A stretch of 64,000 nt of DNA, from IMG/VR virus record IMGVR_UViG_3300037127_000056, positions 32,001-96,000 of that record. One strand, 5' to 3'. The notes under the pieces were generated by a model, which made no database searches, was not told where the DNA came from, and saw only the letters and a program-made list of their open reading frames with translations. Of the stretch, positions 21,511 through 59,184 are shown piece after piece (the first letter of the stretch is position 1; every line of letters begins with the position of its first letter). The stretch is from a virus. Its lineage: Duplodnaviria; Caudoviricetes. Both the position numbers and the translations under genes were made by a program.

Positions 21511-21551
21511 GCCAAGATTGTACGTTTTCCCGTGTGATCCTCGTGGGTTAG

Positions 21552-21852
21552 CCGAAAGGGATCCACATAACAGTCCTTCTTCTTTCGTGTCTCTTCCCGT
21601 CCAGCCGCTGCGCTCCGACCCGAGGGCCATCGTTGTGGCCTCGGTGACATGGGTTCCCGTCTCATGTGACGCGTCTCGCGAGCCATGTCTTGTGAGCCCC
21701 TGTTCTCACCTCTATCCCTCATGCATCTACGCCATCACATCGAACGGCGCCACGCGCCGGAGACTGGACCGATCAAGGGTGAGGACAAGAGCTGAAATGA
21801 CGAAGGGAGAAAAAAGAAGAAGAAGAAGGACTGTTATGTGGATCCCTTTCGG
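21552..21852. repeat. Inverted-repeat-bounded non-coding element, copy 1
   Basis: 33-bp perfect IR CCGAAAGGGATCCACATAACAGTCCTTCTTCTT; core GCCATCACATCGAACGGCGCCACGCGCCGGAGACTGGACCGATCAAG. Confidence 0.95.
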
Positions 21853-21921
21853 GATGAGCCTTGCCCCATAAGGGTTTCCTGGGATTTGACACGCTCCCCG
21901 AAACCATGGCACGATGCGCCC

Positions 21922-22497
21922 ATGCATGAGCCAGTTCCCATCCGTTACGTCGCGCTGTTAGATCCCAAGATCGATCGTGTGAGGCCAACATTCGCCGCCG
22001 CCATTCTTGCCAATGATGCAGGTCATGGCGTCATCGTTCCGTCGGCTTCAAAGACCCGAGGGCAGCTCGATGCATTCTTCGAACGATGGGGACTCCCGAT
22101 TGGATGTACCTACAAGTGGGCCGCCATCGACCCGGGATGGGATACCCCGGTATGGATTGACGCGCCGGGAGTGTTTTCATCCATGGCGCTGGAGTTCATG
22201 AGTGTCCACCAGGCCCGGGTGTACGCGCCCCCCGCGAATTGGTTCACCGTGCTACGTATGCTAGAACCGGCATGCGTCAATCGCGCGTCCAAGAATGAGC
22301 GGTACAACGGTCTGATCCAATTGAGGAAAATCATGTACCCCGTGGTCATCCCGATGTGGTTGAACCGACACGCCGCCCGCATCGGGATATCGACTCGGAC
22401 CCGTGATTGGCAGACCGTTGTCATCGATGCGCTCTACGAGAGCGGATATTCGGTGCCGGAACAATGGGTGGCATGGCTCAACGAGAGACAGAGGTAG
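21922..22497 (+). CDS. Hypothetical protein
   Basis: TTGACA-N18-CACGAT-N6-ATG adjacent to element copy 1. Confidence 0.55.
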   Translation: MHEPVPIRYVALLDPKIDRVRPTFAAAILANDAGHGVIVPSASKTRGQLDAFFERWGLPIGCTYKWAAIDPGWDTPVWIDAPGVFSSMALEFMSVHQARVYAPPANWFTVLRMLEPACVNRASKNERYNGLIQLRKIMYPVVIPMWLNRHAARIGISTRTRDWQTVVIDALYESGYSVPEQWVAWLNERQR

Positions 22498-23114
22498 ATC
22501 TCTGCAAGCGATTGATCGATGCCGCCGACGGGTGGACGGCTTACCCAGAGGTCGGACGATGGGACATCGTCCTGGAACGGGACGGTATCACCGTTGGGGT
22601 TCAAGCCAAGCTTCAGTGCTCGTGGCAACTCTTGGACCAGGTCACGCGTTCCCGCCGGCGGGAAATCCCCAACCATCGGACCATCTTGATCCCGAAGTTC
22701 AACAAGCGGTTCATGCGATTCGCGCGCCGACTCGGTGTCGGAACATACACCGCGAGTGGGCTGGCAACGATGGCCGGGTTCAAGCCGCGGGGCCCATATC
22801 AAGAATCGGACATATGGCTGCCCGATGTTCCATCCCCAACGCCGGCGGGATCGCCGTCGCCGTCATCGTTGACACCGTGGCGACAAGCGGCGATCCGTCT
22901 ATGCATCCTTCTCGACCGGCAAGGCTTCCTCAGCGGCGCTGACTTCGCCTCTCATGGCGTCAATCCTCAGCGGTGGGTTACCCGGGGGTGGCTTGTGAAA
23001 GACGGGTGGTGGGCGGCTGAGGGGCGGAGGTGGCGACGCTACACCCGCGGACCGGCGGAGACGATGCCGGACACCGGATGGGACGTGATCCGGGACCAAC
23101 TCACGCCGGCTTGA
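22473..23114 (+). CDS. PD-(D/E)xK-like nuclease-fold phage protein
   Basis: ETEVDLC...AYPEVGRWDIVL...VGVQAKL. Confidence 0.55.
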   Translation: MAQRETEVDLCKRLIDAADGWTAYPEVGRWDIVLERDGITVGVQAKLQCSWQLLDQVTRSRRREIPNHRTILIPKFNKRFMRFARRLGVGTYTASGLATMAGFKPRGPYQESDIWLPDVPSPTPAGSPSPSSLTPWRQAAIRLCILLDRQGFLSGADFASHGVNPQRWVTRGWLVKDGWWAAEGRRWRRYTRGPAETMPDTGWDVIRDQLTPA

Positions 23115-24492
23115 ACCGGACGCCATCCCACACGATGACGTCTCCGGCTGTCGCGTCAATTCCATTGATGAACGCGGGCGGAATGATCATCGGATCGTCG
23201 TTGCACTGAGCCCATTCGACCACGAGGCCGCCGGGGTATCCAAACACCTTTGGCAGTGTGAGCCGAACTCTGGCCTGTTCCCCGGGTTCTGTCTCGATGT
23301 TGGGTGACCATTCCTGCCAGCGGGAATTGAGTGCGTACAACCGTTCCACACTGGTACGGTAGATGTGTTCGGCGGCAACGTATTCCGCATCGAGCCCATC
23401 CGAATCTCTCGACGCATGGGTGCCGGGGAGTAGGGCACGGCTCAGAGAATAGGTCATCGTAGCTTCGAACGTGTACAGCTGCGCGAGGTCATCCCGTACC
23501 TGTGGGTCCTGTAGTGGGGCAGGATCATTGATGAATGTTTCTTGAACCATGTAGTGATCCAAATGGAGATGCTCCAACAGTTGGGGCCATGCCCCGATGT
23601 TCTTGACCCACTTGGCGTGCTCCCAGTCATTCACGTCGCAGGGCGGGGCGACAACACGCTCGGCGATGCGATCAAGCCGGGCGTGTTCGTTGGTACGGAA
23701 AGTGCGGGGGAAGTCGGGGGACGATAGGAGATCCCAGGTGTCCCGACGCACCCACGTGGCACTCAGGCGGGCCAAGACACCGAGCGCGAACTGTTGGTCT
23801 TCTGGAAAACCGAGATAGAATCCGGTGAGGTCTTTCCACCGTCGGCCGAAGTTTGCGACCCGGATGTGTGTGTGTACTTCATACCCATCACCACTTTGTC
23901 TCAAGACAAGTATGGCCCCCGCATCTGGGGTGGCATCACGGGTGAACCACTCTGAGAAGAATCTGTCGATTCCGGGATCTTCGTCACTGCCGGTGTAGGC
24001 GATGATGCGAAGGTCTTTCGATGATGGGTGTTGCCATACCGGTTTCCCGAGATATTGGCCAGCGGAAACAAACCCCAGGTCTGGGAGCCGGTCGAGTGTC
24101 GATGCCCGCGCCTCCCATGGTGGGGTCATGATGCTGCGCATGGCGTCGGAAAGTAGATAATCGGGGTAATCACCCAAGCCGTTGCTAGCGACCTTCACAA
24201 GCGATGCGACACCACTGAGGCCCAATTTTTTGGCGTATACCAACGCGGCGCCGGCTTCGTGGAATTCTTCCATGCCGTTGCAGCCGTTCCTACCAAAGCA
24301 TGGAACCACGGCGCGGTAGGGGACTGCGCTAGTCCATTCACCCGATGGCAACATGTCGCCAGGAGAGATCTTGACGGAACCCAGAGGATGCACCCGGTCA
24401 TCCATGGTAATTGGTCGAAGGATGATACAGACAGAGTCGTCCCCGGGGCGGATCGCCCCAAAGAGACAGTCATATTTGTTGAAAGTACCCAT
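23101..24492 (-). CDS. Hypothetical protein
   Basis: Long ORF (~463 aa) with no recognised motif. Confidence 0.6.
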   Translation of the reverse strand: MGTFNKYDCLFGAIRPGDDSVCIILRPITMDDRVHPLGSVKISPGDMLPSGEWTSAVPYRAVVPCFGRNGCNGMEEFHEAGAALVYAKKLGLSGVASLVKVASNGLGDYPDYLLSDAMRSIMTPPWEARASTLDRLPDLGFVSAGQYLGKPVWQHPSSKDLRIIAYTGSDEDPGIDRFFSEWFTRDATPDAGAILVLRQSGDGYEVHTHIRVANFGRRWKDLTGFYLGFPEDQQFALGVLARLSATWVRRDTWDLLSSPDFPRTFRTNEHARLDRIAERVVAPPCDVNDWEHAKWVKNIGAWPQLLEHLHLDHYMVQETFINDPAPLQDPQVRDDLAQLYTFEATMTYSLSRALLPGTHASRDSDGLDAEYVAAEHIYRTSVERLYALNSRWQEWSPNIETEPGEQARVRLTLPKVFGYPGGLVVEWAQCNDDPMIIPPAFINGIDATAGDVIVWDGVRFKPA

Positions 24493-24598
24493 AGCAGCTG
24501 TGTAGCACGATTTTCGCGGACTCGTCAACGGGTGACGCGCGCAAAAATGTATGGCCCAAGCGTTGACATCCGGGGCGGCGTGTGTCAACGTTGTGAGC

Positions 24599-24919
24599 AT
24601 GAGCCACGAAACCGAGAACAGTCCATTCCCAATCGACATGTCTGATCCCATCGTGGGATGGTGTGTCGAACAGATTCAACACGCAGACCCCGATGCTATG
24701 AACCTCCCTCATGGACGGATAGCTGCCTTATTCATCCGCGCTATCCTTGGGGAAACCGATGATGCCCGCGCGCGCACAATCAACGCAATCACAGCTGGTG
24801 GCCTTTTCGAGACGTTCCGACGCAATCTTCGTGCCATTCTGACTAATCCAACGGTTCTTGACGATTCGGAAGATCTGATCGAGTACCTCCAGGATCAGGA
24901 AGACGCCGACTCGCTATGA
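24599..24919 (+). CDS. Small helical protein, tandem family member
   Basis: FPIDMSDPIVGWCVEQI. Confidence 0.55.
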   Translation: MSHETENSPFPIDMSDPIVGWCVEQIQHADPDAMNLPHGRIAALFIRAILGETDDARARTINAITAGGLFETFRRNLRAILTNPTVLDDSEDLIEYLQDQEDADSL

Positions 24920-25332
24920 GTAATATGCATCTCTATGCAGTCAAAAATCTAGCTCTGGTTCAATTCGAGCTTCCCATCGACATCGACATCGACACCACGG
25001 GTCTGTCTGTCAAGAAGACGATATCGACTAAGCCGTCACACGAGGTTCCGAAGCAGAGTCTCATGACCATGTTAATGATGGCGCTTATGGGGGATTCATC
25101 CGATGCCGCTGTCTACAGGTGGATCCGCGCATTGGCGCCGCACCGAAGCTACGTCATTGAGTCCATCACGGAATACTTGCGCCTCGCGACACTAGCGGAC
25201 TCGCTTGGCCAGAACCAAGACCACAGCGAATGTGTTGTCGCACTGGTAGACAGATACGCCGAGACCGGGCACCCAATTTCGGCCATCATTGACGAGTTTT
25301 GGCACATCGATGATTTGTCACTTGACAAATGA
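24916..25332 (+). CDS. Small helical protein, possible tandem family member
   Basis: FELPIDIDIDTTGLSVKKTI; 4-nt overlap with the previous gene. Confidence 0.5.
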   Translation: MSNMHLYAVKNLALVQFELPIDIDIDTTGLSVKKTISTKPSHEVPKQSLMTMLMMALMGDSSDAAVYRWIRALAPHRSYVIESITEYLRLATLADSLGQNQDHSECVVALVDRYAETGHPISAIIDEFWHIDDLSLDK

Positions 25333-25396
25333 TGCCCGCGTGTGACACGATCCATATAACCCGGCGCAGTGATGCGCCCAAATCAAAGGAACGACA

Positions 25397-25741
25397 ATGA
25401 GTGACACAACGCCATTTCCAATGCCAAGCACCCCGACCGGACTGTGGGTCCAGCAAATCTTCCGCGATCGTGCTTCCCCCACCCTTGAAGCCCCTCATGA
25501 CCGAATCGCGGTGAAGTATATTTATGAGCTGCTCGGCGCCACCGAGGAGGAATGTACGGTGACGGCGGACACCATCATCGAAGAAGGACTGCGCGAGACG
25601 TTCGTCGATGCCGTGGAGTACGTTATTCGGAACGTCTTGCAGCTGAACTTGAAGCCAGAGGAATTCGTCGATCATCTGCGCCGGTACGCAAGCGACGGGA
25701 TTCCGAACGACCTCGACGAATCAGCTGATCGGGAGGATTGA
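25397..25741 (+). CDS. Small helical protein, tandem family member
   Basis: FPMPSTPTGLWVQQI...PHDRIA...LLG...TIIEEGLRETF; AAGGA RBS. Confidence 0.55.
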   Translation: MSDTTPFPMPSTPTGLWVQQIFRDRASPTLEAPHDRIAVKYIYELLGATEEECTVTADTIIEEGLRETFVDAVEYVIRNVLQLNLKPEEFVDHLRRYASDGIPNDLDESADRED

Positions 25742-26278
25742 CGTCAACACGTCGCGCCCATTGATCGTCACCACGGGGGCGTCGATGGTGATGCTGCCAC
25801 CCGCGGTGATCGATAGGTCTGCGGTGGCGCCGATGTCCACCTTCAACCCGTCGCGTGTGAGACGGAAGCCGCCACCGGTTTCACGATCGATCAATGCGGC
25901 GGTCTCGTTTTTGTCATCAAGTATGATGGCGTATCGCTTCCTGGCAATCACCCAGATCCGGGGTGACCCGCCTTCGGTTTCTGCAGGTACCGATGTCGTC
26001 GGCCACGAACCGCCGTAGTAGTAACCCTCATCGGGATTCCCGAGGAAGAATCTCACTACGACATCGGATCCCTTTTCGGGGACCATCCAAGCTCCGATAC
26101 CTGGCCCGGCACCCATCGCCGCTGGGTACAGCCATCCTGTCGCCGGCTGATCGACGATGCCATCAATCGTGGCACGGATACGACCAAGGCCGCGGGGATC
26201 TTCATTGTCGAACACGACGGCGGCGTAGTCACCGTTCAGATCGAGGCGGTCGCCTTGGTCATCGAATGTTGGTTCCAT
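25721..26278 (-). CDS. Baseplate central spike (gpV/gp5 OB-fold)
   Basis: DNEDPRGLGRIRA...GW...GAWMVPEKGSDVVVRFFLGNPDEGYYYGG; C-terminal ITIDAPVVTING. Confidence 0.88.
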   Translation of the reverse strand: MEPTFDDQGDRLDLNGDYAAVVFDNEDPRGLGRIRATIDGIVDQPATGWLYPAAMGAGPGIGAWMVPEKGSDVVVRFFLGNPDEGYYYGGSWPTTSVPAETEGGSPRIWVIARKRYAIILDDKNETAALIDRETGGGFRLTRDGLKVDIGATADLSITAGGSITIDAPVVTINGRDVLTSILPIS

Positions 26279-26319
26279 ACATGAGATGATAGCAAATACC
26301 GTGCCGTAAACTCGTCATC

Positions 26320-26682
26320 ATGATCCGACTGACGAATGTACGGCGCCCTCCGGCACCGATCGAAATGGCGGGGCCGGCGACCACCGTCGTAAAGCGTCTC
26401 AGGTCGCAGGCTACCAAAACACAGTCCCGACAGAGGGCACTCTCTGGCCGTTCCGCAAAGCGGGGTGTCCGTCGAGAGCAAGTCCACGTCCCGGTGGGGA
26501 TCCGACTGAATCCCGGCGTGCCGGTCGAGGTACCCGACGAATGGCAGCACACCGCGGACTTCAAGCGGCTCGTGGTTCGCCTCCGTTGGGTGCGCGCAGA
26601 GTTCATCCCAGACGCGGATGATTCGGCTCCAAAGGCATCCCCGGTGAAGAAGTCTCGGAAGCGGAATAAGGGGGGCAACTGA
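26320..26682 (+). CDS. Small basic protein preceding the sheath
   Basis: Stop overlaps the sheath start; TAAACT-N7-ATG. Confidence 0.55.
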   Translation: MIRLTNVRRPPAPIEMAGPATTVVKRLRSQATKTQSRQRALSGRSAKRGVRREQVHVPVGIRLNPGVPVEVPDEWQHTADFKRLVVRLRWVRAEFIPDADDSAPKASPVKKSRKRNKGGN

Positions 26683-28886: not shown

Positions 28887-28934
28887 CCCCACGGTTTCCC
28901 GCCGGCGGGAAACGCCACGGGGAGAGGAGACAAC

Positions 28935-31777: not shown

Positions 31778-33871
31778 ATGAGTAACAAACGCTACATCAA
31801 AGAGCGGGACCTTCCGGCAGAACTCGAACCCATCGACGCCGTCACGATCGGCTATGGTCCCCAACTGACGCGCGCCGCGGATGCGTTGGTCCGCGGCCAG
31901 CACGTCTTGATCTCAACGGACTTGATGGTCTCGACGTTCGTATCACAGATCATCTCGGACCGTCTCAAGAATCAAGACCAGAGTCTCGCGGACCGCATCC
32001 GCTACATCGACTCGGCACCCCTACCAGAGATGGAAGGTGCCGCACCGTCTCAGGTCATGATGGCAAAGATTCGAATGGCCATCAACAACCCGCCCGCGGA
32101 CGATTCGCCACCGATCATCATGATCCCGTTCCTCGGTGTGTTGGTGTCCGGCTCCGGCAGCCTCACCATGGAAGCTCGGCAGTTCGCGCAGCTCGTGGGC
32201 GAGAACCCCGAGGAAGCGATCTGGTTCGCGTGCATGGACCGGAACATCGTCATCCCGGATTCGTTGTCGAAGATCTTTGGCCTCCATGAGCGTTGCGAGG
32301 GTATCGCCCGTGAGCGGTTGCCGCAACTGGTGACCCGCGAGCACGCCCGCAAGTTCTCGGCGGCACCGAATCGGTTCGACCCATTCGGCCTTCACCAGCT
32401 CGTGTCGGGCCTCAACCCGTTTTCTCTGATCAAGGCCCTCGACGCCGTCAACGTGGCGCCGTACATCGATCCCGATGGGGCGTACGACCAGCTCGCGGAA
32501 GCGGCCACCGACGCCGATGTCGAGCGCCCCGACATCGGTCTCGACGACGACATCGGCGGATACCAAGACGTCAAGGACAAGCTCAACGACGAGATCATCT
32601 CGTTCCTGGAGCGGCTCGACGAAATCGATGACCCCGTGGAGTACAAAAAGACCGAATCGATGATCCCCCGCGGCATCCTCCTACATGGCCCCCCGGGCAC
32701 CGGCAAGACGCTGTTCGCCAAAGCGCTCGCCACGGCCATCAATGGCGTCTGCATCGTCGTCAACGGCCCGGAGCTGAAGTCCAAGTTCGTTGGCGAGTCG
32801 GAAGAAAACATCCGACGGGTTTTCCGTCGAGCCCGCCGCAATGCACCCGCAGTGATCGTGTTCGACGAGATCGATAGCCTCGCCCCGGCTCGGGACATGT
32901 ACTCCGGCGGCAACGGGGTCACCCACGCCATGGTCAATCAGCTACTCACCGAACTCGACGGGTTCCGCAAGGATGAACTGGTGTTCGTCATCGGCACCAC
33001 AAACTTCCCGTCATCCCTGGACCCCGCCCTGCTTCGGGACGGACGGCTCGGACATCAGATCTATGTCGGGTACCCCGATGACGACGCCCGCCGCGCGATC
33101 CTGAATCTGTACAACGACAAGCAAGAGCTGGAGATCGATGACGACGCCATGACGACTCTTGTCCGGCGCACCGCAGGTCCAACTCCCAACACCGGCACCC
33201 GATACACCGGGGCTGCACTCGCCGGCCTGTGTAGCGCCCTGGCTCGCTACCGCATCCGCGAGCGCGTCAAAGGGGTGACCACGAAGGAACACATCGACGC
33301 CCTCTTCGATTCGATGGTCGATCGCCCGGATCTCAACGAGGGGGAGCGTCGTACCGTCGCCGTCCACGAAGCCGGTCATGCCGTCGTCGCACTGCACCTG
33401 GAGCACGCGCCGCCGATCAGCCGTGTGACGATCGAGGGGGATGTCTCCGGCGCTCTGGGCTACGTGGCGTTCGATGACCCCAAGGACAAGTATGTCCAGA
33501 CCAAGCCCGCACTACTCGACCGGATATGCACCATGCTCGGTGGCCGGGCCGCTGAGGAGGTTGTACTCAAGGTGGTGTGCGCCGGTGCCAGCGACGACAT
33601 CGCCCGCGCCACGCGACTGGCCACCGCCATGGTCACTCAACTGGGGATGGGTGCAAGCCTCGCAATGACTGGCGACACCAACGTCCCGGCGAGTGTCAGT
33701 GAAGCCCGCCACGCCGAGATCGAAGGTATCCTCAAGGCGCAGCTCACGCGCGCCAAGGGCCTGATCGAAACCTACGCCGCGGAGCACGCCGGCATGGTCG
33801 AGGTCCTACTCAACAACGGGTCCTACGAGGTCGGCGGCGACGGTGAGCTGCGCGTCGAGAAGGGGGCGTAA
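31778..33871 (+). CDS. Soluble FtsH-like AAA+ ATPase / M41 metalloprotease (no TM helices)
   Basis: GPPGTGKT, VFDEID, TNFPSSLDPALLRDGRL, HEAGH, LGGRAAEEV, GASDDI; ~250-aa hydrophilic N-terminus. Confidence 0.92.
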   Translation: MSNKRYIKERDLPAELEPIDAVTIGYGPQLTRAADALVRGQHVLISTDLMVSTFVSQIISDRLKNQDQSLADRIRYIDSAPLPEMEGAAPSQVMMAKIRMAINNPPADDSPPIIMIPFLGVLVSGSGSLTMEARQFAQLVGENPEEAIWFACMDRNIVIPDSLSKIFGLHERCEGIARERLPQLVTREHARKFSAAPNRFDPFGLHQLVSGLNPFSLIKALDAVNVAPYIDPDGAYDQLAEAATDADVERPDIGLDDDIGGYQDVKDKLNDEIISFLERLDEIDDPVEYKKTESMIPRGILLHGPPGTGKTLFAKALATAINGVCIVVNGPELKSKFVGESEENIRRVFRRARRNAPAVIVFDEIDSLAPARDMYSGGNGVTHAMVNQLLTELDGFRKDELVFVIGTTNFPSSLDPALLRDGRLGHQIYVGYPDDDARRAILNLYNDKQELEIDDDAMTTLVRRTAGPTPNTGTRYTGAALAGLCSALARYRIRERVKGVTTKEHIDALFDSMVDRPDLNEGERRTVAVHEAGHAVVALHLEHAPPISRVTIEGDVSGALGYVAFDDPKDKYVQTKPALLDRICTMLGGRAAEEVVLKVVCAGASDDIARATRLATAMVTQLGMGASLAMTGDTNVPASVSEARHAEIEGILKAQLTRAKGLIETYAAEHAGMVEVLLNNGSYEVGGDGELRVEKGA

Positions 33872-38572: not shown

Positions 38573-39133
38573 TCACTCGACGATTTCTTTGGCGATGTCC
38601 CCAACCCCCGCGTCGTCACAGAAGCACGTGACGGTCTTTAGAACGTCGAGGTTGATGCCCGCTTGGTCGAGGATGAGGACGGCGAGGGCCGCGTACTCTT
38701 CGGGGTGAAGGGCTTCGGGGATCAGGTCTTCGAGTGTCTTGATGGTGTTCATGGGGTGACTATCGCACATCACCCACTGGGGCGACAAGCGGAATCGGTA
38801 CGCCGGTGTGACGAATGTCGAGAATTCCGCGAGGTGCGCTTTGGCGTCGCGAGCAACAGCACGGAGCCGCTCGTGGATGTAGCCGCCGTTGTAGACCCGC
38901 TGAGTCCCATGTTGTCCGCAAGCGATGCCGTAGGTGCCCGGGCCCGCCCATGCTTCGTCAACCAGCTCATCGATGTTAGCCTCACGCTCGTGCTCAAGGC
39001 CGCCACAATACTCCGGCGGGTTGACGCGGGCTCGCAGGTCGGCGCGGGTGGCGAAGTGCTCGAACTCGATGTGATCGACGTCATCATCGAAGACCACGTG
39101 GAAGGCGGCGGGGATGGTTTGGTCATTGCTCAT
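38573..39133 (-). CDS. Hypothetical protein
   Basis: TTGACG-N18-TACCAT-N7-ATG adjacent to element copy 2. Confidence 0.6.
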   Translation of the reverse strand: MSNDQTIPAAFHVVFDDDVDHIEFEHFATRADLRARVNPPEYCGGLEHEREANIDELVDEAWAGPGTYGIACGQHGTQRVYNGGYIHERLRAVARDAKAHLAEFSTFVTPAYRFRLSPQWVMCDSHPMNTIKTLEDLIPEALHPEEYAALAVLILDQAGINLDVLKTVTCFCDDAGVGDIAKEIVE

Positions 39134-39202
39134 GGCGGTCATGGTAGCCCGCGGTGGGTGGATGCGTCAAGGGCCAGGAAACCCGCGTCGTTGCTGGCTC
39201 AT

Positions 39203-39499
39203 CCCGAAAGGGATCCACATAACAGTCCTTCTTCTCTCTCCTCTCTCCCCTTCTTCTCCTCCTTCGTCATCTCAGTTCTTGTCCCCACCCTTGATCGGTC
39301 CAGTCTCCGGCGCGTGGCGCCGTTCGATGTGATGGCGCATGGGTGAGAAGGACAGATGTGAGGACGACGGCTCACAGGACATGGCTCGCGAGACGGGAAC
39401 CCACATCACCTGGGCCACGGAGATGGCCCGCGGGACGGAGCGCAGCGACGGGAGGAAAGAGGAAAAGAGAGAAGGACTGTTATGTGGATCCCTTTCGGG
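39203..39499. repeat. Inverted-repeat-bounded non-coding element, copy 2 (reverse complement of copy 1)
   Basis: Same IR and core as 21552-21852. Confidence 0.95.
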
Positions 39500-39604
39500 T
39501 AACTCATCGACATCACAAGGGAAATCGCCACATTTCGCCCTCATCACCGACGCCCCCTACCACAAGGCTTGACATTGCCCCACCGATCGCGGTACAACGC
39601 CGAC

Positions 39605-40180
39605 ATGAGCACCAATCAAACATTTCAAACGGCCTACAAAATCTTCCCGAAGTACATGTCGGACGACACCATTCGTCTCGGCCATTACGAAACGGTGAAT
39701 GCACTCATCGATGACCTCGGCCCCGCGTCGGACGCGGTGAAGCGGATGGCCATTGCCGTATGGAGTTGGCCAGGGGTGTATGCCATCGTTCAAGCCGTCA
39801 ACGGAACGACCATTGACGTGATTCCGGGACACGAGGTCGAACGCGCCCTTGGCAGCGCGGAAGCCGTCTTCCGAGATCTGCGACTCAAGCTGGCCCCGGT
39901 TCCCGCCGGCGGGAAAGCGTATGACTGTCTCCCCAACCTCACCGGAAGTGAAGGACGAATCTACGACGTTCGATTCGAGACGCTCATGGAAGACCCCGGC
40001 GTTCCCGATGATACTTGGTTCGAATGGTCTGTCCCCGGCACATATATGACATATACTGCGGGCGAGATCCGGCAATGTGACCTCGCGCAGCGGGCCATGA
40101 TCAAGGTTTCGGAGCAGAGGGCGCAGCTCGATGAGATCGAGACCATGTTTCACCAGTTCGTTGCCAACACAGAAGACTGA
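39605..40180 (+). CDS. Hypothetical protein
   Basis: TTGACA...TACAAC-N6-ATG. Confidence 0.6.
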   Translation: MSTNQTFQTAYKIFPKYMSDDTIRLGHYETVNALIDDLGPASDAVKRMAIAVWSWPGVYAIVQAVNGTTIDVIPGHEVERALGSAEAVFRDLRLKLAPVPAGGKAYDCLPNLTGSEGRIYDVRFETLMEDPGVPDDTWFEWSVPGTYMTYTAGEIRQCDLAQRAMIKVSEQRAQLDEIETMFHQFVANTED

Positions 40181-52626: not shown

Positions 52627-52641
52627 GAGGAACTCCTCAGT

Positions 52642-52926: not shown

Positions 52927-52958
52927 CATCATCCCCATACTCCAACCAACGAGGAACT

Positions 52959-53525: not shown

Positions 53526-53587
53526 GCTCATGATATGACCGGGTTGGAGAGCCCGTTCTGACATAAGGGTTGGATGGTGTATGGGTT

Positions 53588-53627
53588 GAGCCGGGCCACT
53601 TCGGTGGTGAGCCGGCTCTTTTTTTTT
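53588..53627 (+). terminator. Rho-independent terminator of the head operon
   Basis: GAGCCGG-CCAC-TTCG-GTGG-CCGGCTC followed by T9. Confidence 0.8.
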
Positions 53628-53634
53628 GTCGGAA

Positions 53635-54927
53635 TCACACGACCTTCACATGCGTCACCCACGTGTCCGGCTCGCCGCGGAACTCGCGATGTTGCTTCAC
53701 CTTGGCCCGAATGGTGTAACACTCGCCCTTGGTCATCTCCGGGTACGACGACGTCTTCCAGCTCATCTTGTCGCCCGCTTGGGTACGGAACACGAACAAC
53801 CGGGTGAATCCGCCGTAGCCGTTCTCACCGAAGTCGATGATCTTCTCCAAGGTGACCTCACCGGTGGCGTACTGCCCGACGATCCCGACGTGCTCCCCGG
53901 CAGGCTTGGATCCGTTCCGCTTTCTGGCGTCGTCCTGACGCTTCTGGTACCAGATCCACGCCGCCGCCGCGATGCGGGTGTGACGGTCCTGTAGGTAGAC
54001 GTCCTTGAGACTGGCGATGAGATTGGCCTCGAAGTCATTCCCGCCGGCGGGAATCTCACCCACCGCGGCGACCATCCGCTCGGCATGAGCCCGGTCATCA
54101 TCGGTCACCATAAGCGGATCCTGTCCCCAATAGGACACCATCGCGCGAGACGCCGTCGGAATGAGATTCCGCTCGTACGCCGCCTTGCCGGACACCCATC
54201 CATAGACGCGGGCCGCGGCGCAGACATGCGCCATGAAATCGTCCCGTTCCACGACATGGGGGTAGTCGTTGCCGACGTACCGCATCTCGCCAACGGCCTT
54301 GCCGATCCGTGCGATGTCCTTGAACGTGGTTTCCAGCATGCCGCCATCATCCACGAAGTCCGTGAGACACGTGGAGCCGACCTGTAACGACGTATCGCCG
54401 TTGTGTAGGACGAATGTGGTGTGCCGGCGACGCTTCGTCTGGCAGTGGTCACAGAATGCCGTGGAGCGGACCTTATTCCAGTCCACCCCAGCAAGGAGCA
54501 TCATCTGCGCTCGCGCCATAGCCCCGGTGAACTCGTGTCCGGTCTCGATCATGTGGTCCATGGCAACCATAGCGGATTCCGCGTCGTTGACACCCATCTC
54601 TACCCCGGCGTTGCGGGCCGCGTTGGCGATGATACCGATCGCCGGGATCGACTTGATGACCGCGGTGTCCCCGGCATGCTCGACCTTGGCCAAAACCGTC
54701 CATTCATGGGTCTGCCACACGAGGCCGCTGATCGTGACATCGACCACGGCGACATCGCGAGGCAGCCCCCACGACAGTCCCGACACGGTGTAGATGTCAG
54801 ACGTCGTGATGGTCAATGCGTTGAGGTCACCCCCCTTGGCGCGGCGACGATTGATGCGACCCACGGTCTTGGTGATGACGTCATTCCGGCCGGCGGGAAT
54901 CGTGATGGTGTAGTTCTGCGTGTTCAT
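53635..54927 (-). CDS. Conserved phage protein with Cys cluster and C-terminal OB-fold-like region
   Basis: CDHCQTKRRR...QVGSTCLTDF; WKTS...IRAKVKQHREFRG. Confidence 0.7.
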   Translation of the reverse strand: MNTQNYTITIPAGRNDVITKTVGRINRRRAKGGDLNALTITTSDIYTVSGLSWGLPRDVAVVDVTISGLVWQTHEWTVLAKVEHAGDTAVIKSIPAIGIIANAARNAGVEMGVNDAESAMVAMDHMIETGHEFTGAMARAQMMLLAGVDWNKVRSTAFCDHCQTKRRRHTTFVLHNGDTSLQVGSTCLTDFVDDGGMLETTFKDIARIGKAVGEMRYVGNDYPHVVERDDFMAHVCAAARVYGWVSGKAAYERNLIPTASRAMVSYWGQDPLMVTDDDRAHAERMVAAVGEIPAGGNDFEANLIASLKDVYLQDRHTRIAAAAWIWYQKRQDDARKRNGSKPAGEHVGIVGQYATGEVTLEKIIDFGENGYGGFTRLFVFRTQAGDKMSWKTSSYPEMTKGECYTIRAKVKQHREFRGEPDTWVTHVKVV

Positions 54928-54980
54928 GACCGTTACACTAGCGCATCCGCCGGCAACCCGCAAGATCTAAACTCGACTTT

Positions 54981-57005
54981 GTGGCGGACATCTCGACATT
55001 TTTCCCCGATCGCATTGGCTTCGAACACGGGCGTATCGTCCCGGAGTCGGTCACACCAGCGGATGGCGACTATGTCCTGAGTCTCGGCGGCGATCGCCCC
55101 TACACGACGTCATTGTTCACACCCGGTGATACGGTCGCCTATAGCCAGGAGCTGGCCCGCGGGACGAACAACCTGCTTCGGATGGTCGCCGCCACAATCG
55201 GCGTCCCCGTCCCTGTCATCACCACACCCCCGGTGTTCGCGCTCGCCGACGCCGAGACCATCACATTCACTTCCGACGGGGAGACCGAAGTCGTCACCCT
55301 TTCGACCGATGACTTCGTGGACATCGCGAACGCCACCGGCCAGGAGGTCGCCGATGTACTCGCCCGTGACCTCTCCGGGATCTACTCCGTGCGGCTCAGC
55401 AAAGATTACCGCGTCACCGTGGTGAGCACCCAGCGCGGCAAACAATCTGAGATCGTTGTAGGGGGCACGGCGACCCTTGGCTTTCGTCGCCCGCGCTGGA
55501 TCCTTGAAGCCGACGTCGAGGGGGTCATCGTATCTCGCGAAATCTTGTCCGGCGATGCCCAAGTCTACACCGACATCGCTGTCTACCTCGATGGTCTGCC
55601 GGCAAGCGTGACCACCACACTGAAGCTCTCGTTCCTGGACGCCGATGGTGTGGTCGATGCCGGCGTCCTGATGTTGGCGGAGCTACCGGGTGCGTACTTC
55701 GACAACCTCGTGTTCCTCACGGTGTCGCCCACCACTCTGATCAACCGCGTCCCTGAGCCCGGACATAGCGACCATCCCGTGGGCGACAACATCGTTCTCG
55801 AAGCCGTGGCGGATGCTCCCATCGCGATCGGCGATGTCTCGATCAACGTGTCCATCAATGGCGACGATTTCACCGCGATCGACACCGGCTCATTCGTCGC
55901 CCCATTCGATGGCCCGGAGTCGGCACTGACTCAGATTGGACCGAACCATATCGGGATCGTCATTGACCCCGTGGATGACCTGCCGGAGCAAACCGAGATC
56001 ACGGTGATGTTTTTGGCACCGCTGAATGGCGGCGCCGGTCCCATCACATACCAGTTCGTCACCGAAGACCTTACCGGGCCAAGGATCGAATCTCTCACGG
56101 CGCTGAGCAAGACAGAAGTCGTGATCACGTTCAACGAAGGCGTCGCCGATGACGCCCTGGATCCCGCGAACTGGACATACACCGCGGTCACGTTGCCGGC
56201 AATAACGCCCGTCGTGGTCTCTGTGGTACGCATCTCCACGCGTGCCGTGAAGCTCATCATCGACACCGAAACCTCGGTGGGTCGCATCTATGAAGTCGCC
56301 GCCGAATCCGTCGATGATACGTCCGGGAATGATAGTGGTCCGATCTCAATCCGCTACACCGCCCCGGCGTCATCGAACTCGCCCACGGACAGAGATTTCC
56401 GAGTTCAAGACTTTGTCCCGGACTACAACTGGTCCCTCGATGCGGCCGGCGACTTGCGGAGGTTCATCGACAGCTTGCAAGACATCGTTGACGTCCTGTT
56501 GTGCTCCATCGACGAATGGGTTTTGCAACTCGACCCCGATACCGCCAGTGAGCCAGTACTCGATGCCATGTTGTGCGATCTCGGGAATCCGTTCAACTTT
56601 GTCTTGTCCGAGAATGAAAAGCGCAAGTTGATCCGGGTCTTGGTGGCCATCTACCGGCTCAAGGGCACCAAGGTTGGGATCGAACAAACCATTCTGTTCT
56701 TTCTTGGGATCTCCGTCGAGGTCGTATGTCCGTTTCTTGAGACGACTTGGATCATGGGCGTGTCCGAAATGGGGATTTCCACCATCATGGGAAGCGGCTC
56801 ATCTTACGACAAGTACTCGTTCTACATTGTCTCACCGGTGGAATTGACCGATGCACAGAGAGAGCAAATCACGAGCATCGCGGAACTGATGAAGCCAGCG
56901 CACACCCACTTCTTGAGAATCGATGAACCCACCCCACCACCCCCGGTCGTGACCACCTTGATAATGGGTGTGTCTGAAATGGGGATCAACTGGATCATGA
57001 ATTGA
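54981..57005 (+). CDS. Baseplate wedge / tail protein (P2 gpI-like domain plus Ig-like domains)
   Basis: LDPDTASEPVLDAML.DLG...YRLKGTKVGI...MKPAHTH. Confidence 0.85.
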   Translation: MADISTFFPDRIGFEHGRIVPESVTPADGDYVLSLGGDRPYTTSLFTPGDTVAYSQELARGTNNLLRMVAATIGVPVPVITTPPVFALADAETITFTSDGETEVVTLSTDDFVDIANATGQEVADVLARDLSGIYSVRLSKDYRVTVVSTQRGKQSEIVVGGTATLGFRRPRWILEADVEGVIVSREILSGDAQVYTDIAVYLDGLPASVTTTLKLSFLDADGVVDAGVLMLAELPGAYFDNLVFLTVSPTTLINRVPEPGHSDHPVGDNIVLEAVADAPIAIGDVSINVSINGDDFTAIDTGSFVAPFDGPESALTQIGPNHIGIVIDPVDDLPEQTEITVMFLAPLNGGAGPITYQFVTEDLTGPRIESLTALSKTEVVITFNEGVADDALDPANWTYTAVTLPAITPVVVSVVRISTRAVKLIIDTETSVGRIYEVAAESVDDTSGNDSGPISIRYTAPASSNSPTDRDFRVQDFVPDYNWSLDAAGDLRRFIDSLQDIVDVLLCSIDEWVLQLDPDTASEPVLDAMLCDLGNPFNFVLSENEKRKLIRVLVAIYRLKGTKVGIEQTILFFLGISVEVVCPFLETTWIMGVSEMGISTIMGSGSSYDKYSFYIVSPVELTDAQREQITSIAELMKPAHTHFLRIDEPTPPPPVVTTLIMGVSEMGINWIMN

Positions 57006-57006
57006 G

Positions 57007-57654
57007 ATGGTCTCTGAATGGCACAACCGCGCCGTGGCTCGACTCCGGGCGTATGAATGGCTCATCGACCACGCGGGCGTCCGCGACGTGTTGACGACGA
57101 CTCTCGATGCTGCCGTTGAGCAAGGCATCGAAGGTTCCGTAGAGGTCGCGGACGCCCTTGCTGTTCCATTGGGTCCACCGAATTGGAACGTCCGGCCCGA
57201 TGTCGTGATGCGGACCATATTGGCAGCGGTTTCAGAAGCCGCAATGGCCGAGAGTGTCGGTGGTGACACGATGGTCGGCTTTGTCGTTGGAACGAACCTC
57301 CAGCTCTATATCGATGCCAACGATGCCGGCGCCGAGATGCAAATCACTCAGGCCATCTACCACCACTTGCACCGAGCTGGGTTCGCAACGCATGACATCG
57401 GGATCCGTATCGGAGAAATCCCAACGGCGTGCGAACGATGGACATTCTCTTGGCGCGGGCGCCCGCAGGTAACGCATGTCCTCGAACTCAGCCGATGGTT
57501 GTCCCATTATTCGGCATTTGCTGTCATCGTGGGCGATACGGACACTGCATGGGTGGGTGAGGTTTTGTGTTCTGATCCGCCCGCACTAGATGGTGACGCT
57601 AGCGGCGCCCGTAACCCCCGTCACCTTCTCACGATAGACGACGCGGATGAGTAG
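57007..57654 (+). CDS. Hypothetical protein
   Basis: 215-aa ORF directly after the baseplate gene. Confidence 0.5.
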   Translation: MVSEWHNRAVARLRAYEWLIDHAGVRDVLTTTLDAAVEQGIEGSVEVADALAVPLGPPNWNVRPDVVMRTILAAVSEAAMAESVGGDTMVGFVVGTNLQLYIDANDAGAEMQITQAIYHHLHRAGFATHDIGIRIGEIPTACERWTFSWRGRPQVTHVLELSRWLSHYSAFAVIVGDTDTAWVGEVLCSDPPALDGDASGARNPRHLLTIDDADE

Positions 57655-57966
57655 GCCATCGCCGTCGCCTTGAACATCCACGGCCTCCGTGGCGACGGAC
57701 AAGACCTGTACAGAATCCATCCATTCCGTGAGGGCTTCTTGGACCAAGGCTCCGGCAAGGGCGGGGAGCCCATCGTCATTGGGCAAAAACTTCAAGGTGT
57801 GCAACCGTGATCCGAACCGTGCGTTCCACGGCAGCTCCCCTTGTCGCGTGCCTAGGACCTGGCCGATGTGCTCGGCAATCAAGGTCGAGCCAGTCTCGGA
57901 ATCGATGTCGGCGGCCCCGCGTCGGAAGGTGCTGGAGATGCCGGTTTGCTGGTTGCGGAGTGCCAT
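57586..57966 (-). CDS. Baseplate gp25/GPW-family protein
   Basis: IGQVLGTRQGELPWNARFGSRL...EALTEW. Confidence 0.85.
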   Translation of the reverse strand: MALRNQQTGISSTFRRGAADIDSETGSTLIAEHIGQVLGTRQGELPWNARFGSRLHTLKFLPNDDGLPALAGALVQEALTEWMDSVQVLSVATEAVDVQGDGDGLLIRVVYREKVTGVTGAASVTI

Positions 57967-57997
57967 GAGGCAATTGTAGGATCGGGTCAAAAAGAAT

Positions 57998-58026
57998 GCC
58001 CCCAATGAGACTATCTCATTGGGGGC
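57998..58026 (-). terminator. Hairpin, probable minus-strand terminator
   Basis: GCCCCCAATGAGA-3nt-TCTCATTGGGGGC followed on the minus strand by ATTCTTTTT. Confidence 0.55.
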
Positions 58027-58140
58027 ATCATGACTCAGTCGGTCGGCTTACCGGGCTTCTCCTTGCGCGGGGGCGGGGGAGGCGGCGGCGGGGGTGGGAA
58101 GTCGGGATCGGGGTCCGTTGGGGTGGCATGGTTCTTGTAG

Positions 58141-58743
58141 TCATTCATCATCATCGTTACTCCTTTGCTTGCGCTTGAAGCGCTGAAATCGGTTCGTCCA
58201 ATCGTGCATCGCGGATGCCCATCGAACATCCATCTCCTTACGCCAGTCCGTGAGATTATTGAGCTTGTGCTCCAAGAGCTGGATCTTGGATTCCATTTCG
58301 TGGATCCTGGCGTTGAACTTTGAGATCTCATTGATCTTGTCGAACATCGTGTCGAACCGCCCCTCCAGTTTCTGGAAGCGCAGCTCGACGTCGCTCTTGA
58401 GCGCTCCAATGGCTTGCGCGTTGTCGCTGGGGGTGAGGTACCCGCCGCTGAGAAACGCCGCCACAATCGCTCCCAGGACGGCCCCATAGCGCGTCCACGT
58501 ATGTTGGATGAACACCTGGCCCGGTGATGGCTCCCCATCCGTTGGGTGTTGCCCCGGAGGAACGGTGGCGGCTCTAGGCAGCCGCTCATGCATCCCCTCA
58601 TTATCACCGACACTCTGGGCTCGTTCCCGCGGCCCCCACCCATCATACCCATGCATGCTGTTGAGTGTATGGTCTTTCCGTAACCATCGTCGCGCATTGA
58701 GCTTACAACGCGGGCACAACGAAGGTGGATCGGTGGGGCGCAT
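58141..58743 (-). CDS. Membrane-anchored coiled-coil protein
   Basis: YGAVLGAIVAAFLSGGYL then heptads; start uncertain. Confidence 0.55.
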   Translation of the reverse strand: MRPTDPPSLCPRCKLNARRWLRKDHTLNSMHGYDGWGPRERAQSVGDNEGMHERLPRAATVPPGQHPTDGEPSPGQVFIQHTWTRYGAVLGAIVAAFLSGGYLTPSDNAQAIGALKSDVELRFQKLEGRFDTMFDKINEISKFNARIHEMESKIQLLEHKLNNLTDWRKEMDVRWASAMHDWTNRFQRFKRKQRSNDDDE

Positions 58744-58802
58744 GTGAAGTATATGGTACCGGCATCGAAAAGGGTGATTTCCCTTGTGATGTCGATGGGT
58801 TA

Positions 58803-59032
58803 CCCGAAAGGGATCCACATAACGGTCCTTTCTCTCTCTCCTCTTCTTCTTCCTCTCTCTCAGCTCTTGCCCCAGCTCTTGATCGATCCAGTCTCCGGCG
58901 CGTGGCGCCGTTCAATGTGATGGCGCATGGGTGAGAGGGTCGGAGGTGAGGACGATGACCCGCGGGACGGAGCGAAGCGACGAGAGGAGGACACAAGAGA
59001 AGAAAAGGACTGTTATGTGGATCCCTTTCGGG
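58803..59032. repeat. Inverted-repeat-bounded non-coding element, copy 3 (shorter, core flipped)
   Basis: Same IR (1 mismatch) and core; about 70 bp shorter. Confidence 0.93.
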
Positions 59033-59184
59033 GGCTACCTCAAGCATCATCGCCATACAACTCCATCATGGCCATGAGATGCGTTCTATCGCCGCCGACA
59101 TCGTCCCGGTGGTTGGGTACCAAGAAGGCAGACCATCGCCACCACGCCCGGCTCAACACGTCTTATGGGATACCACGACCGGCA

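What the first reader, a model, noticed from the sequence alone, without database searches (positions are those of the whole stretch)
21520..59040. Three ~230-300 bp elements with long terminal inverted repeats and a conserved core
Copies at 21552-21852, 39203-39499 and 58803-59032, spaced about 18-20 kb apart. Each is IR CCGAAAGGGATCCACATAACAGTCCTT, a variable CT-rich tract, a core, an AG-rich tract and the IR, so single-stranded DNA or RNA could form a long stem. The conserved core has CGCT(G/T)CGCTCCG.CCCG and a ~48-nt block GCCATCACAT.GAACGGCGCCACGCGCCGGAGACTGGA.CGATCAAG with a GGCGC-CAC-GCGCC hairpin. No transposase or target-site duplication is evident. Copies 1 and 2 lie between divergent genes and share an outward promoter (GGGATGAGCC...GGGTTTCCTGG...TTGAC-...-ATG). 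Candidates: an undescribed structured ncRNA, replication or priming origins (GAGCGCAGCG/GAGCGAAGCG recalls plasmid single-strand initiation motifs), or recombination/regulatory hubs.
Basis: partly seen in the sequence, partly recalled or inferred. Interest (0 to 1): 0.85.

Follow-up and report, generated by a model that had tools for sequence, protein, structure and literature searches.

The report
Five palindromic origin-like phage modules
A 116-kb uncultured tailed phage carries five copies of a 230-300 bp module bounded by an invariant 27-bp repeat; one copy lies inside the phage's own primase-type replication gene, and strand composition flips at the copies, so they are most likely replication origins or initiator-binding sites, not a small RNA or a jumping element.

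Summary
The three copies sit at the stated coordinates, and the 27-bp repeat never occurs by chance in shuffles. The window belongs to a 116,337-bp phage record that holds five copies.

- **Repeat arms:** the ten arms show 2 changes in 270 nt, while the interiors are only 72-81% identical. This points to a sequence-specific protein site, not just a stem.
- **Purine/pyrimidine tracts:** every arm abuts one, and all ten such runs of 14 nt or more in the genome lie in these modules.
- **Copy in a gene:** one copy lies in frame in the inter-domain linker of a 978-aa primase-like (AEP) protein. Six distant homologues lack this insert.
- **GC skew:** it switches from negative to positive across the copies (p about 0.0002-0.001 jointly). 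Gene orientation does not explain this. Only the copy in the primase gene is significant alone.
- **Negative results:** no Rfam match, covariation, internal promoter, target-site duplication, transposase, recombinase or reverse transcriptase, and no copy in any other public sequence searched.

Best reading (about 45%): dispersed origin or initiator-binding modules, as with SPP1 oriL/oriR. A regulatory cassette, a MITE-like element and an invertible segment remain possible. Other first-stage notes on this same genome had already called two copies origin-like; nothing comparable was found on other DNA.

The parts
21526..21550 (+). Copy B: conserved outer 'L' flank motif (TTTCCCGTGTGATCCTCGTGGGTTA). 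It lies just outside the left arm and overlaps the upstream region of the leftward gene, whose ATG is at 21510 on the minus strand.
   Evidence: The motif occurs only next to four of the modules in the whole genome.
21552..21578 (+). Copy B: left 27-bp arm. It contains a CC-GAAA-GG mini-palindrome and the word ATCCACA.
21579..21825 (+). Copy B: interior. It runs CT-rich tract, asymmetric conserved core, then a 29-nt homopurine run that starts at 21802. The core holds CGCTGCGCTCCG, GGCCA-N6-TGGCC, CGTCTCGCGAGCCATGTC and the ~48-nt block 21729-21779 with GGCGCC-ACG-CGCC.
21826..21852 (-). Copy B: right 27-bp arm. The arms are perfectly complementary over 33 bp in this copy.
   Evidence: (I11).
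21851..21924 (+). Copy B: conserved outer 'R' flank, with GGGATGAGCC at 21851-21860 and GGGTTTCCTGG at 21872-21882. It runs into an outward leaderless promoter: TTGACA 21886-21891, 18-nt spacer, CACGAT 21910-21915, ATG at 21922.
   Evidence: The promoter was read from the sequence; it is below the threshold of the scan.
39141..39205 (-). Copy C: 'R' flank plus outward promoter on the minus strand (TTGACG-18-TACCAT, 39170 to 39141), driving the leftward gene.
39204..39230 (+). Copy C: arm on the window's left side, followed by a 40-nt homopyrimidine run (39226-39265).
39231..39471 (-). Copy C: interior, in reverse orientation relative to copy B.
   Evidence: (I1, I2).
39472..39498 (-). Copy C: second arm, preceded by a 27-nt homopurine run (39450-39476).
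39500..39524 (-). Copy C: 'L' flank motif in reverse complement. The promoter of the rightward gene lies 45 nt further on (TTGACA 39569-39574, TACAAC 39593-39598, ATG 39605).
58778..58802 (+). Copy D: 'L' flank motif. Here it adjoins the arm that is the far arm in the other copies, so the interior is flipped relative to the flank.
58804..58830 (+). Copy D: arm carrying the only substitution seen in any arm (A to G), followed by a 36-nt homopyrimidine run (58826-58861).
58831..59004 (-). Copy D: interior with a ~70-nt deletion of the left core. The 48-nt block is retained.
59005..59031 (-). Copy D: second arm. There is no R motif beyond it. The stop codon of a minus-strand gene (59185-59673) lies 150 nt further on.

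Best explanation
The modules are dispersed cis-acting replication elements of the phage: origins, or at least binding sites for its initiator. Each arm is a 27-bp recognition site joined to a purine/pyrimidine tract that melts easily.

The proposed working is this. The phage's 978-aa AEP (primase-polymerase type) protein, alone or with a host initiator, binds the arms. The adjacent tract opens. The pyrimidine-rich template strand is primed, so that synthesis leaves the module outward on both sides.

The copy inside the primase gene, which has direct arms and so forms no hairpin in the mRNA, would be the principal origin, as ori-lambda lies in gene O and SPP1 oriL lies in gene 38. The four palindromic copies would be further origins or initiator-bound sites, like SPP1 oriR.

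Shown here: the repeat family, the extreme conservation of the arms, the uniqueness and low stability of the tracts, the in-frame position in the primase linker, and the skew polarity switch. Inferred and untested: who binds the arms, the unwinding, the priming and its direction, and firing at all five copies.
For: 1. Arm conservation. Ten arms (270 nt) carry 1 substitution and 1 deletion, while the interiors are 72-81% identical (79-92% in the core). About 22 changes are expected, P(<=2) = 6e-8. On the most conservative rate the figure is P = 8e-4. The letters themselves are kept, as for a protein site.

2. Tracts. All ten homopurine or homopyrimidine runs of 14 nt or more in the 116-kb genome lie directly inside an arm. 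Their 40-nt windows are among the least stable 0-1% of the genome.

3. Position of copy A. It lies in frame in the linker between the AEP domain and the C-terminal domain of the 978-aa protein. The catalytic motifs hDhDAH, SPxGGxH and DhYP...RLPLG align with six distant homologues. All six lack the 80-90 residues encoded by the element. The family profile hits solved prim-pol domains 7NQD/7NQF at E = 2e-5. There are weak Pfam AEP and PHROG primase hits.

4. No other replication initiator. No DNA polymerase or other initiator family appeared in Pfam sweeps of about 110 ORFs, so this protein is the obvious initiator candidate.

5. GC skew.
- The four most prominent minima of cumulative skew (88.6, 9.0, 70.6 and 53.0 kb) lie 0.2-2.2 kb from copies D, A, C and B.
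- Skew to the right minus skew to the left of the nearest copy is 0.045. This gives p = 0.0002-0.0008 against five random sites and p < 0.0002 against five random divergent junctions. Only rotations within about 1.5 kb of the true positions reach this value.
- In a gene-level regression the side effect has t = 3.4, the strand effect is not significant, and the side effect is seen in genes of both orientations.
- With A fixed, the other four copies add more than four random sites do (p = 0.007).

6. Precedent. SPP1 gp38 binds repeats in oriL, which lies inside its own gene, and in a second intergenic oriR. Each has repeats plus an unwinding element (PMC6316719).
Against: - Individually only copy A (top 1-2% of genome positions) has a notable skew switch, and D is borderline (6-7%). 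B, C and E are at 12-30%. Without A the joint p is 0.02-0.07. With A and D fixed, the other three add only marginally (p = 0.058).
- AT skew shows nothing.
- The modules are not AT-rich (56-64% G+C). At a 100-nt scale they are not among the least stable sites of the genome.
- No binding, unwinding or replication datum exists. The host is unknown.
- No relative carries the element, so conservation across phages cannot be tested.
- The primase loci of two distant relatives show no analogous repeats.
- The conserved L and R flanks and the asymmetric GC-rich core are not explained by a bare origin model.
- Five origins in 116 kb would be unusual for a phage.
Confidence: 0.45

Rival explanations
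1. Regulatory cassette. The arms are operators for a phage DNA-binding regulator that controls the flanking promoters, perhaps by looping the 200-270 bp between the two arms. The whole unit (L flank, arms, core, R flank with a -35 box) has been copied in front of different genes. This would resemble the promoter-plus-stem-loop cassettes of T4-type phages.
For: Copies B, C and E lie between divergent genes. They share an R flank that runs into an outward TTGAC -35 box, followed by a -10 box and a leaderless ATG. Conservation extends beyond the arms on both sides. The arms are conserved as letters, as operators are. The phage encodes its own sigma-70-family factor.
Against: This reading does not explain the GC-skew polarity switch, which is independent of gene orientation and absent at divergent junctions in general. 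It does not explain a copy inside the primase gene linker. It does not explain why the genome's only purine/pyrimidine tracts sit there. The distance from the L motif to the start codon ranges from 16 to 80 nt, so L is not a fixed promoter part. Copy D has no R promoter. This reading and the origin reading are not exclusive.
Confidence: 0.2
2. MITE-like non-autonomous mobile element. It would have 27-bp terminal inverted repeats, would have spread in this phage lineage, and would be mobilised by a host transposase. One insertion would be tolerated in frame in the primase linker, as with Rickettsia palindromic elements.
For: The anatomy fits: terminal inverted repeats, 230-300 bp, no coding capacity of its own, dispersed and mostly intergenic copies. 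The insertion in the primase linker is absent from all homologues. Five of the six reading frames through the arm are open (read from the sequence). MITEs are documented in viral genomes (PMC11602168, seen; abstract only).
Against: No target-site duplication at any copy. No transposase, recombinase or reverse transcriptase in the phage. No copy in INPHARED, IMG/VR, JGI metagenomes or GTDB genomes. The nine metagenome and two genome hits to an 18-mer are single and do not extend, so they are chance hits. No empty L|R site exists in the genome, and L and R occur only next to the elements, so the repeated unit is larger than the inverted-repeat-bounded part. All ten arms are intact although the interiors have diverged by about 20%. 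This implies selection on every copy, which is not expected of decaying passengers.
Confidence: 0.2
3. Invertible DNA segments (invertons). A site-specific recombinase, supplied by the host, would flip the asymmetric interior between the 27-bp arms and so switch something carried inside.
For: The anatomy matches invertons: inverted repeats of 27 bp or more around a 175-245 bp asymmetric segment. Copy D's interior is flipped relative to its L flank. Copy A has its right end inverted. So inversions at the arms have happened at least twice.
Against: Six-frame family searches and Pfam sweeps found no serine or tyrosine recombinase. No sigma-70-type promoter lies inside the elements. Rare homologous recombination between 27-33-bp repeats would also explain two historical flips. 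This reading does not explain the skew result or the tracts.
Confidence: 0.07
4. Structured non-coding RNA (or a long double-stranded RNA hairpin processed by RNase III) transcribed from the modules.
For: Either strand folds far better than shuffles do (-141 and -149 kcal/mol, z = -7.5). The interior contains small conserved hairpins.
Against: The fold energy comes from the perfect arms. There is no covariation in the interior. The few 'compensated' pairs lie in CT/AG tracts that pair equally well between different copies. There is no Rfam family and no promoter or terminator inside. In B, C and E the flanking promoters point away from the element. The arms are conserved as sequence, not as pairs.
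Confidence: 0.04

Closest known systems
Bacillus phage SPP1 oriL / oriR with origin-binding protein gp38 (PMC6316719)
   Same: One copy of the repeat element lies inside the gene of the replication initiator. Further copies lie in intergenic regions among other genes. Each copy pairs repeated protein sites with an easily melted stretch.
   Different: [quoted passage not shown] Its initiator is a lambda-O-like organiser that loads a DnaB-type helicase. Here there are five copies, 27-bp arms mostly in inverted orientation around a conserved GC-rich core, purine/pyrimidine tracts in place of AT-rich DNA, and an AEP primase-like protein. Binding is not shown.
ori-lambda inside gene O (own knowledge)
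   Same: The origin is embedded in frame in the inter-domain linker of the initiator gene.
   Different: Lambda has a single origin with four 19-bp iterons and an AT-rich region, and no dispersed copies.
Herpes simplex virus oriS / oriL (own knowledge)
   Same: Several palindromic origins per genome. Each has initiator boxes in inverted orientation and lies between divergently transcribed genes.
   Different: That is a eukaryotic virus. Its palindromes are 45-144 bp with an AT centre, and its initiator UL9 is a helicase. There is no homology, only a resemblance in layout.
Bacterial MITEs such as Neisseria Correia elements and Rickettsia palindromic elements; MITEs in viral genomes (PMC11602168)
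   Same: Terminal inverted repeats of about 26-27 bp, a size of 100-300 bp, dispersed intergenic copies that can carry outward promoter parts, and occasional in-frame insertion in genes.
   Different: Here there is no target-site duplication, no transposase, no copy outside this one genome, conservation beyond the repeats, and intact arms in every copy despite diverged interiors.
Promoter-early stem-loop (PeSL) cassettes of T4-type phages (own knowledge)
   Same: Repeated intergenic cassettes that combine a promoter with a hairpin-forming repeat and are placed before unrelated genes.
   Different: PeSLs are short (tens of bp) and far more numerous. They have no link to a replication gene or to strand-composition switches.
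Invertons (invertible promoters; Hin/Gin/Cin type switches) (own knowledge)
   Same: Inverted repeats flank a short asymmetric segment. One copy is found flipped relative to its flank.
   Different: No invertase gene, no internal promoter, and no evidence of both orientations coexisting.

Membership tests
Initiator-dependent phage/plasmid origin (lambda, SPP1, P4 type) | Repeated, sequence-conserved binding sites for the initiator | tested here: inconclusive
   Ten near-identical 27-bp arms under strong sequence constraint. Which protein binds them was not tested.
Initiator-dependent phage/plasmid origin (lambda, SPP1, P4 type) | DNA unwinding element next to the sites | tested here: inconclusive
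   The purine/pyrimidine tracts next to each arm are in the least stable 0-1% of 40-nt windows. At 100 nt they are unremarkable, and they are not AT-rich.
Initiator-dependent phage/plasmid origin (lambda, SPP1, P4 type) | Position in or beside the initiator gene | tested here: met
   Copy A lies in frame in the linker of the AEP primase-like gene. The other four copies are 10-45 kb away.
Initiator-dependent phage/plasmid origin (lambda, SPP1, P4 type) | Strand-composition polarity switch (negative to positive GC skew) at the site | tested here: met
   Jointly p = 0.0002-0.001, independent of gene strand. Clear only for A when copies are taken singly, and borderline for D.
Initiator-dependent phage/plasmid origin (lambda, SPP1, P4 type) | Supports initiation of replication | not testable with these tools
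   This needs an origin assay, marker-frequency analysis or nascent-strand mapping.
MITE | Terminal inverted repeats bounding a short non-coding element | tested here: met
   27-bp arms, 228-301 bp.
MITE | Target-site duplication | tested here: not met
   The flanks of all copies were read and no direct repeat was found.
MITE | Cognate transposase with matching ends somewhere (in the element's host or a full-length IS) | tested here: not met
   None in the phage. The arm sequence is absent from GTDB genomes, JGI metagenomes and IMG/VR apart from chance 18-mers. The host is unknown.
MITE | Insertion polymorphism or empty sites | tested here: inconclusive
   No empty L|R site in the genome. No close relative is available for comparison.
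Inverton | Site-specific invertase encoded nearby | tested here: not met
   No Resolvase or Phage_integrase family match in six frames.
Inverton | Both orientations present in a population | tested here: inconclusive
   Only contigs of one run were available, and they break at the arms.
Inverton | Promoter or coding end inside the flipped segment | tested here: not met
   No sigma-70-type promoter inside the elements. A promoter for the phage's own sigma factor cannot be excluded.
Described structured RNA (Rfam) | Match to a family model at its gathering score | tested here: not met
Described structured RNA (Rfam) | Compensatory base changes supporting a fold | tested here: not met
   Four copies; no covariation outside the low-complexity tracts.
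Plasmid single-strand initiation (ssi) signals | Conserved ssi hairpin and motif recognised by a primase or primosome | not tested
No reference sequences were on hand.
DnaA-box origin | Consensus DnaA boxes (TTATCCACA) | tested here: inconclusive
   Each arm holds GGATCCACA, a 7-of-9 match. A match this good is expected by chance in about 5% of 27-mers. The host and its box are unknown.

The most novel reading that the evidence does not exclude
A tailed phage replicates from five dispersed palindromic origins. Each is built from two inverted units of [27-bp initiator site + pyrimidine-tract priming template] around a conserved core. The origins are fired by the phage's own AEP primase-polymerase, which primes directly on the pyrimidine strand. 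This would be a multi-origin, herpesvirus-like layout not described for bacteriophages, with the master copy written in frame into the initiator's own linker.
Probability: 0.2. Interest if true: 0.8.

Novelty: new variant of a known kind. Interest (0 to 1): 0.55.

Why it matters
Replication origins are known for only a handful of model phages, and almost nothing is known for phages that use AEP-type primase-polymerases as initiators. If these modules are origins, they give three things. First, a defined 27-bp recognition site and a candidate priming template for such an enzyme. Second, a natural case of multiple origins in one phage genome. Third, a clear set of constructs to test: five natural variants, including a flipped copy, a deleted copy and a copy with direct repeats. 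If they are instead operators or a mobile element, they are still a compact module, so far found only in this phage, that places promoters in front of unrelated genes.

Tried and rejected
**Searches for the element elsewhere**
- blastn and megablast against INPHARED phages: no match.
- Exact 20-mer and a paired-arm pattern in IMG/VR: nothing.
- 18-mer in JGI metagenomes and GTDB genomes: nine and two single hits. None extends to the 27-mer or has a partner, so they are chance hits.
- Portal-based search for related phages: best hit 38% identity, none with the element.

**Sequencing runs**
- Only one holder was found, a wetland metagenome that is probably the source of the record. No RNA holder is listed.
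- Laying its contigs showed only that they break at the arms and cross-map between copies. Nothing can be said on inversion, depth peaks or transcripts.

**Primase-like protein**
- The word-based homologue search found only the protein itself.
- The exhaustive search found distant homologues, plus a 77-aa 'protein' that is merely an ORF call across copy C of this same genome.
- The primase loci of two distant relatives (L037, L038) have no comparable repeats. A third had no DNA available.

**Readings tested and dropped**
- Coding reading of the element: lengths between ATGGCC and the arm differ by multiples of three in four copies. But copy D and the 1-nt deletion in copy E break the frame, and the tracts are trinucleotide-rich, so this was dropped.
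- Arm co-evolution in the CT/AG tracts: none.
- AT skew: no signal.
- Single-origin model with A alone: poor fit (r = 0.04).

**Other**
- Host assignment from the sigma factor was inconclusive, with Myxococcota and Planctomycetota-like neighbours.

Full report
**1. What is there**

The three elements are at window 21552-21852, 39204-39498 and 58804-59031. The 27-mer CCGAAAGGGATCCACATAACAGTCCTT occurs six times at up to 3 mismatches. Five of these are exact, and there were none in 100 shuffles.

The window is bases 32001-96000 of a 116,337-bp IMG/VR virus record rated complete. It is a tailed phage with a portal, tape measure, XkdF-type protease, T4 gp19-like tube and a large terminase containing an intein. 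It has about 59% G+C, no tRNA genes, and genes that change strand often.

The whole genome holds five copies, given here in genome coordinates:

| Copy | Position | Notes |
|---|---|---|
| A | 8541-~8830 | rearranged; the two arms are direct repeats |
| B | 53552-53852 | complete |
| C | 71204-71498 | reverse orientation |
| D | 90804-91031 | reverse orientation; ~70-nt internal deletion |
| E | 101312-101590 | one arm has a 1-nt deletion |

**2. Anatomy**

Reading inward from either end, each complete copy has a 27-bp arm and then a pyrimidine-rich tract of 15-40 nt. Between the tracts lies an asymmetric, GC-rich core of about 150 nt. The core has three small palindromes (GGCCA-N6-TGGCC, CTCGCGAG, GGCGCC-ACG-CGCC) and a 48-nt block that hardly varies.

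Conservation goes beyond the arms. An 'L' motif of about 25 bp lies on one side in B, C, D and E. An 'R' motif of about 40 bp lies on the other side in B, C and E, and runs into an outward TTGAC -35 box, a -10 box and a leaderless ATG. L and R occur nowhere else in the genome, and no empty L|R junction exists.

In D the interior is flipped relative to L, and R is missing. Copy A consists of the left two thirds of an element, then (GGCGCCCCC)x3, then a right end in inverted orientation. As a result its two arms are direct repeats 190 bp apart. B, C and E lie between divergent genes, D lies between two minus-strand genes, and A lies inside a gene.

**3. Constraint**

The interiors are 72-81% identical (79-92% in the core). 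The ten arms carry one substitution and one deletion in 270 nt. About 22 changes would be expected, P = 6e-8. On the most conservative rate, P = 8e-4.

The CT and AG tracts of one copy pair no better with each other than with tracts of other copies. The interior shows no covariation. So the arms are kept as a sequence, which points to a protein site. The long stem beyond them is a by-product of composition.

All ten homopurine or homopyrimidine runs of 14 nt or more in the genome lie in these modules. Their 40-nt windows are in the least stable 0-1% of the genome, but at 100 nt they are unremarkable.

**4. What it is not, as far as can be tested**

- *RNA family:* Rfam gave no match at gathering scores. 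At permissive E-values the only match was a plant miRNA-precursor model at 31 bits against a gathering score of 200, which is a hairpin artefact.
- *Transcription signals:* no sigma-70-type promoter or terminator lies inside the elements.
- *Mobility signatures:* no target-site duplication. Six-frame searches found no resolvase or integrase family. Pfam sweeps of about 110 ORFs found no transposase or reverse transcriptase.
- *Copies elsewhere:* none in INPHARED, IMG/VR, JGI metagenomes or GTDB genomes beyond chance 18-mers.
- *Reads:* only one sequencing run holds the phage. It is kept as contigs that break at the arms, so orientation, depth and transcription could not be read.

**5. The link to replication**

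Copy A lies in a 978-aa ORF on the minus strand. An exhaustive protein search found distant homologues. Aligned with them, the protein has the three AEP primase motifs (hDhDAH, SPxGGxH, DhYP...RLPLG) and a conserved C-terminal domain (G-STG-x-D-x-RQ ... W-A). The element-encoded 80-90 residues fall in the linker between these domains and are absent from all six homologues.

The family profile matches solved prim-pol domains 7NQD/7NQF at E = 2e-5. Pfam AEP-TOTE and a PHROG primase family give weak hits over the same residues. No DNA polymerase or other initiator family was seen in the sweeps. An origin written into the linker of the initiator gene is the lambda and SPP1 arrangement. SPP1 also has a second, intergenic copy bound by the same protein (PMC6316719).

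**6. Strand composition**

Coding-strand GC skew is about zero on average (-0.009), so gene orientation does not drive the skew in this genome.

- The four most prominent minima of cumulative skew (88.6, 9.0, 70.6 and 53.0 kb) lie 0.2-2.2 kb from D, A, C and B.
- With the elements themselves masked, skew to the right minus skew to the left of the nearest copy is 0.045. This gives p = 0.0002-0.0008 against five random sites and p < 0.0002 against five random divergent junctions. Among all rotations of the five positions round the circle, only those within about 1.5 kb of the true positions reach 0.04.
- In a gene-level regression the side effect has t = 3.4 and the strand effect is not significant. 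Genes of both orientations show the side effect.

The limits must be stated. Taken singly, only A is in the top 1-2% of genome positions, and D is at 6-7%. B, C and E are at 12-30%. Without A the joint p is 0.02-0.07. A alone as a single origin fits badly (r = 0.04), while A+C+D or all five fit best (r = 0.28-0.30). The four other copies add more to A than four random sites do (p = 0.007), but B, C and E add only marginally to A+D (p = 0.058). AT skew shows nothing.

**7. Reading**

The best-supported explanation is that the arms are sites for the replication initiator, with a meltable purine/pyrimidine tract beside each. The modules would be origins or initiator-bound sites, with A as the main one.

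A mechanistic guess fits the geometry. AEP primases favour pyrimidine-rich templates (own knowledge). On each strand the pyrimidine tract lies just inside the arm, so a primer made on it would grow outward through the arm. That gives two diverging leading strands per palindromic copy, and one direction only at A. This is inference and none of it is shown.

An earlier first-stage note pointed out that each arm holds GGATCCACA, a 7-of-9 match to the E. coli DnaA box. A match this good is expected by chance in about 5% of 27-mers, so it is a lead only.

The conserved R promoter part and the L motif suggest that the modules also organise transcription of their neighbours, as herpesvirus origins between divergent genes do. 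The origin and regulatory readings may both hold.

The flipped interior of D and the inverted end in A show that recombination at the arms has occurred. Without a recombinase gene or read evidence, I rate a programmed switch as unlikely. A MITE origin of the family cannot be excluded. However, the missing duplications, the missing transposase, the conservation beyond the repeats and the intact arms in all copies argue against a merely selfish element.

**8. Verdict**

This is a new variant of a known kind: phage origins made of initiator-site repeats, with one copy inside the initiator gene. It is unusual in copy number, palindromic design, purine/pyrimidine tracts and the AEP-type initiator. 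All functional steps await experiment.

Noticed in passing
window 415-63631 (for example 2492-2512, 7847-7867, 28893-28913, 39897-39917): The 14-16-bp perfect palindrome (T)TCCCGCCGGCGGGA(A) recurs about 25 times in the window, mostly at gene boundaries. Earlier first-stage notes place it in promoter spacers. It could be a phage operator or a terminator-like hairpin.
   Followed up: partly
window 38573-39133 (-) and 39605-40180 (+): The two genes that diverge from copy C may be distant paralogues (26% identity over 108 aa, E = 0.004 in a tiny database; both start MS(N/T)(D/N)QT and share a W-x-G-P/W-P-G-x-Y motif). If so, the palindromic layout around this copy would extend into the genes.
   Followed up: partly
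window 61064-63586 (-): The large terminase subunit (840 aa, PHROG 38, E = 9e-42) is interrupted by a homing-endonuclease/intein-like segment (Pfam Hom_end, residues 215-299).
   Followed up: no
genome 16459-17892 (+), outside the window (locus L010): The phage encodes a 478-aa sigma-70-family factor with regions 2, 3 and 4. Its nearest atlas clusters are primary-type sigma factors of Myxococcota and Planctomycetota. Its promoters are unknown and could lie in the modules.
   Followed up: partly
window 247-3458 (-), window 31778-33871 (+), and genome 22-32 kb: There is a MoxR-vWA-FtsH 'ternary system' gene set: bpMoxR, ivWA, fvmX5/6/7 domains, a radical SAM protein and a soluble FtsH-like AAA+/M41 protease. 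It is carried by a phage and split over two loci.
   Followed up: no
whole genome: Most genes have a -10 box 6-7 nt before the start codon and no Shine-Dalgarno sequence, which implies leaderless mRNAs. Genes change strand 54 times across 117 predicted genes, which is unusual for a tailed phage. No DNA polymerase family and no tRNA gene was found.
   Followed up: partly
genome 8700-8730 (locus L010), inside copy A: A (GGCGCCCCC)x3 tandem repeat lies at the rearrangement junction of copy A and is translated as APGAPGAPG in the primase linker. It starts where the other copies have the GGCGCC-ACG-CGCC palindrome, which suggests that the palindrome was the breakpoint.
   Followed up: partly
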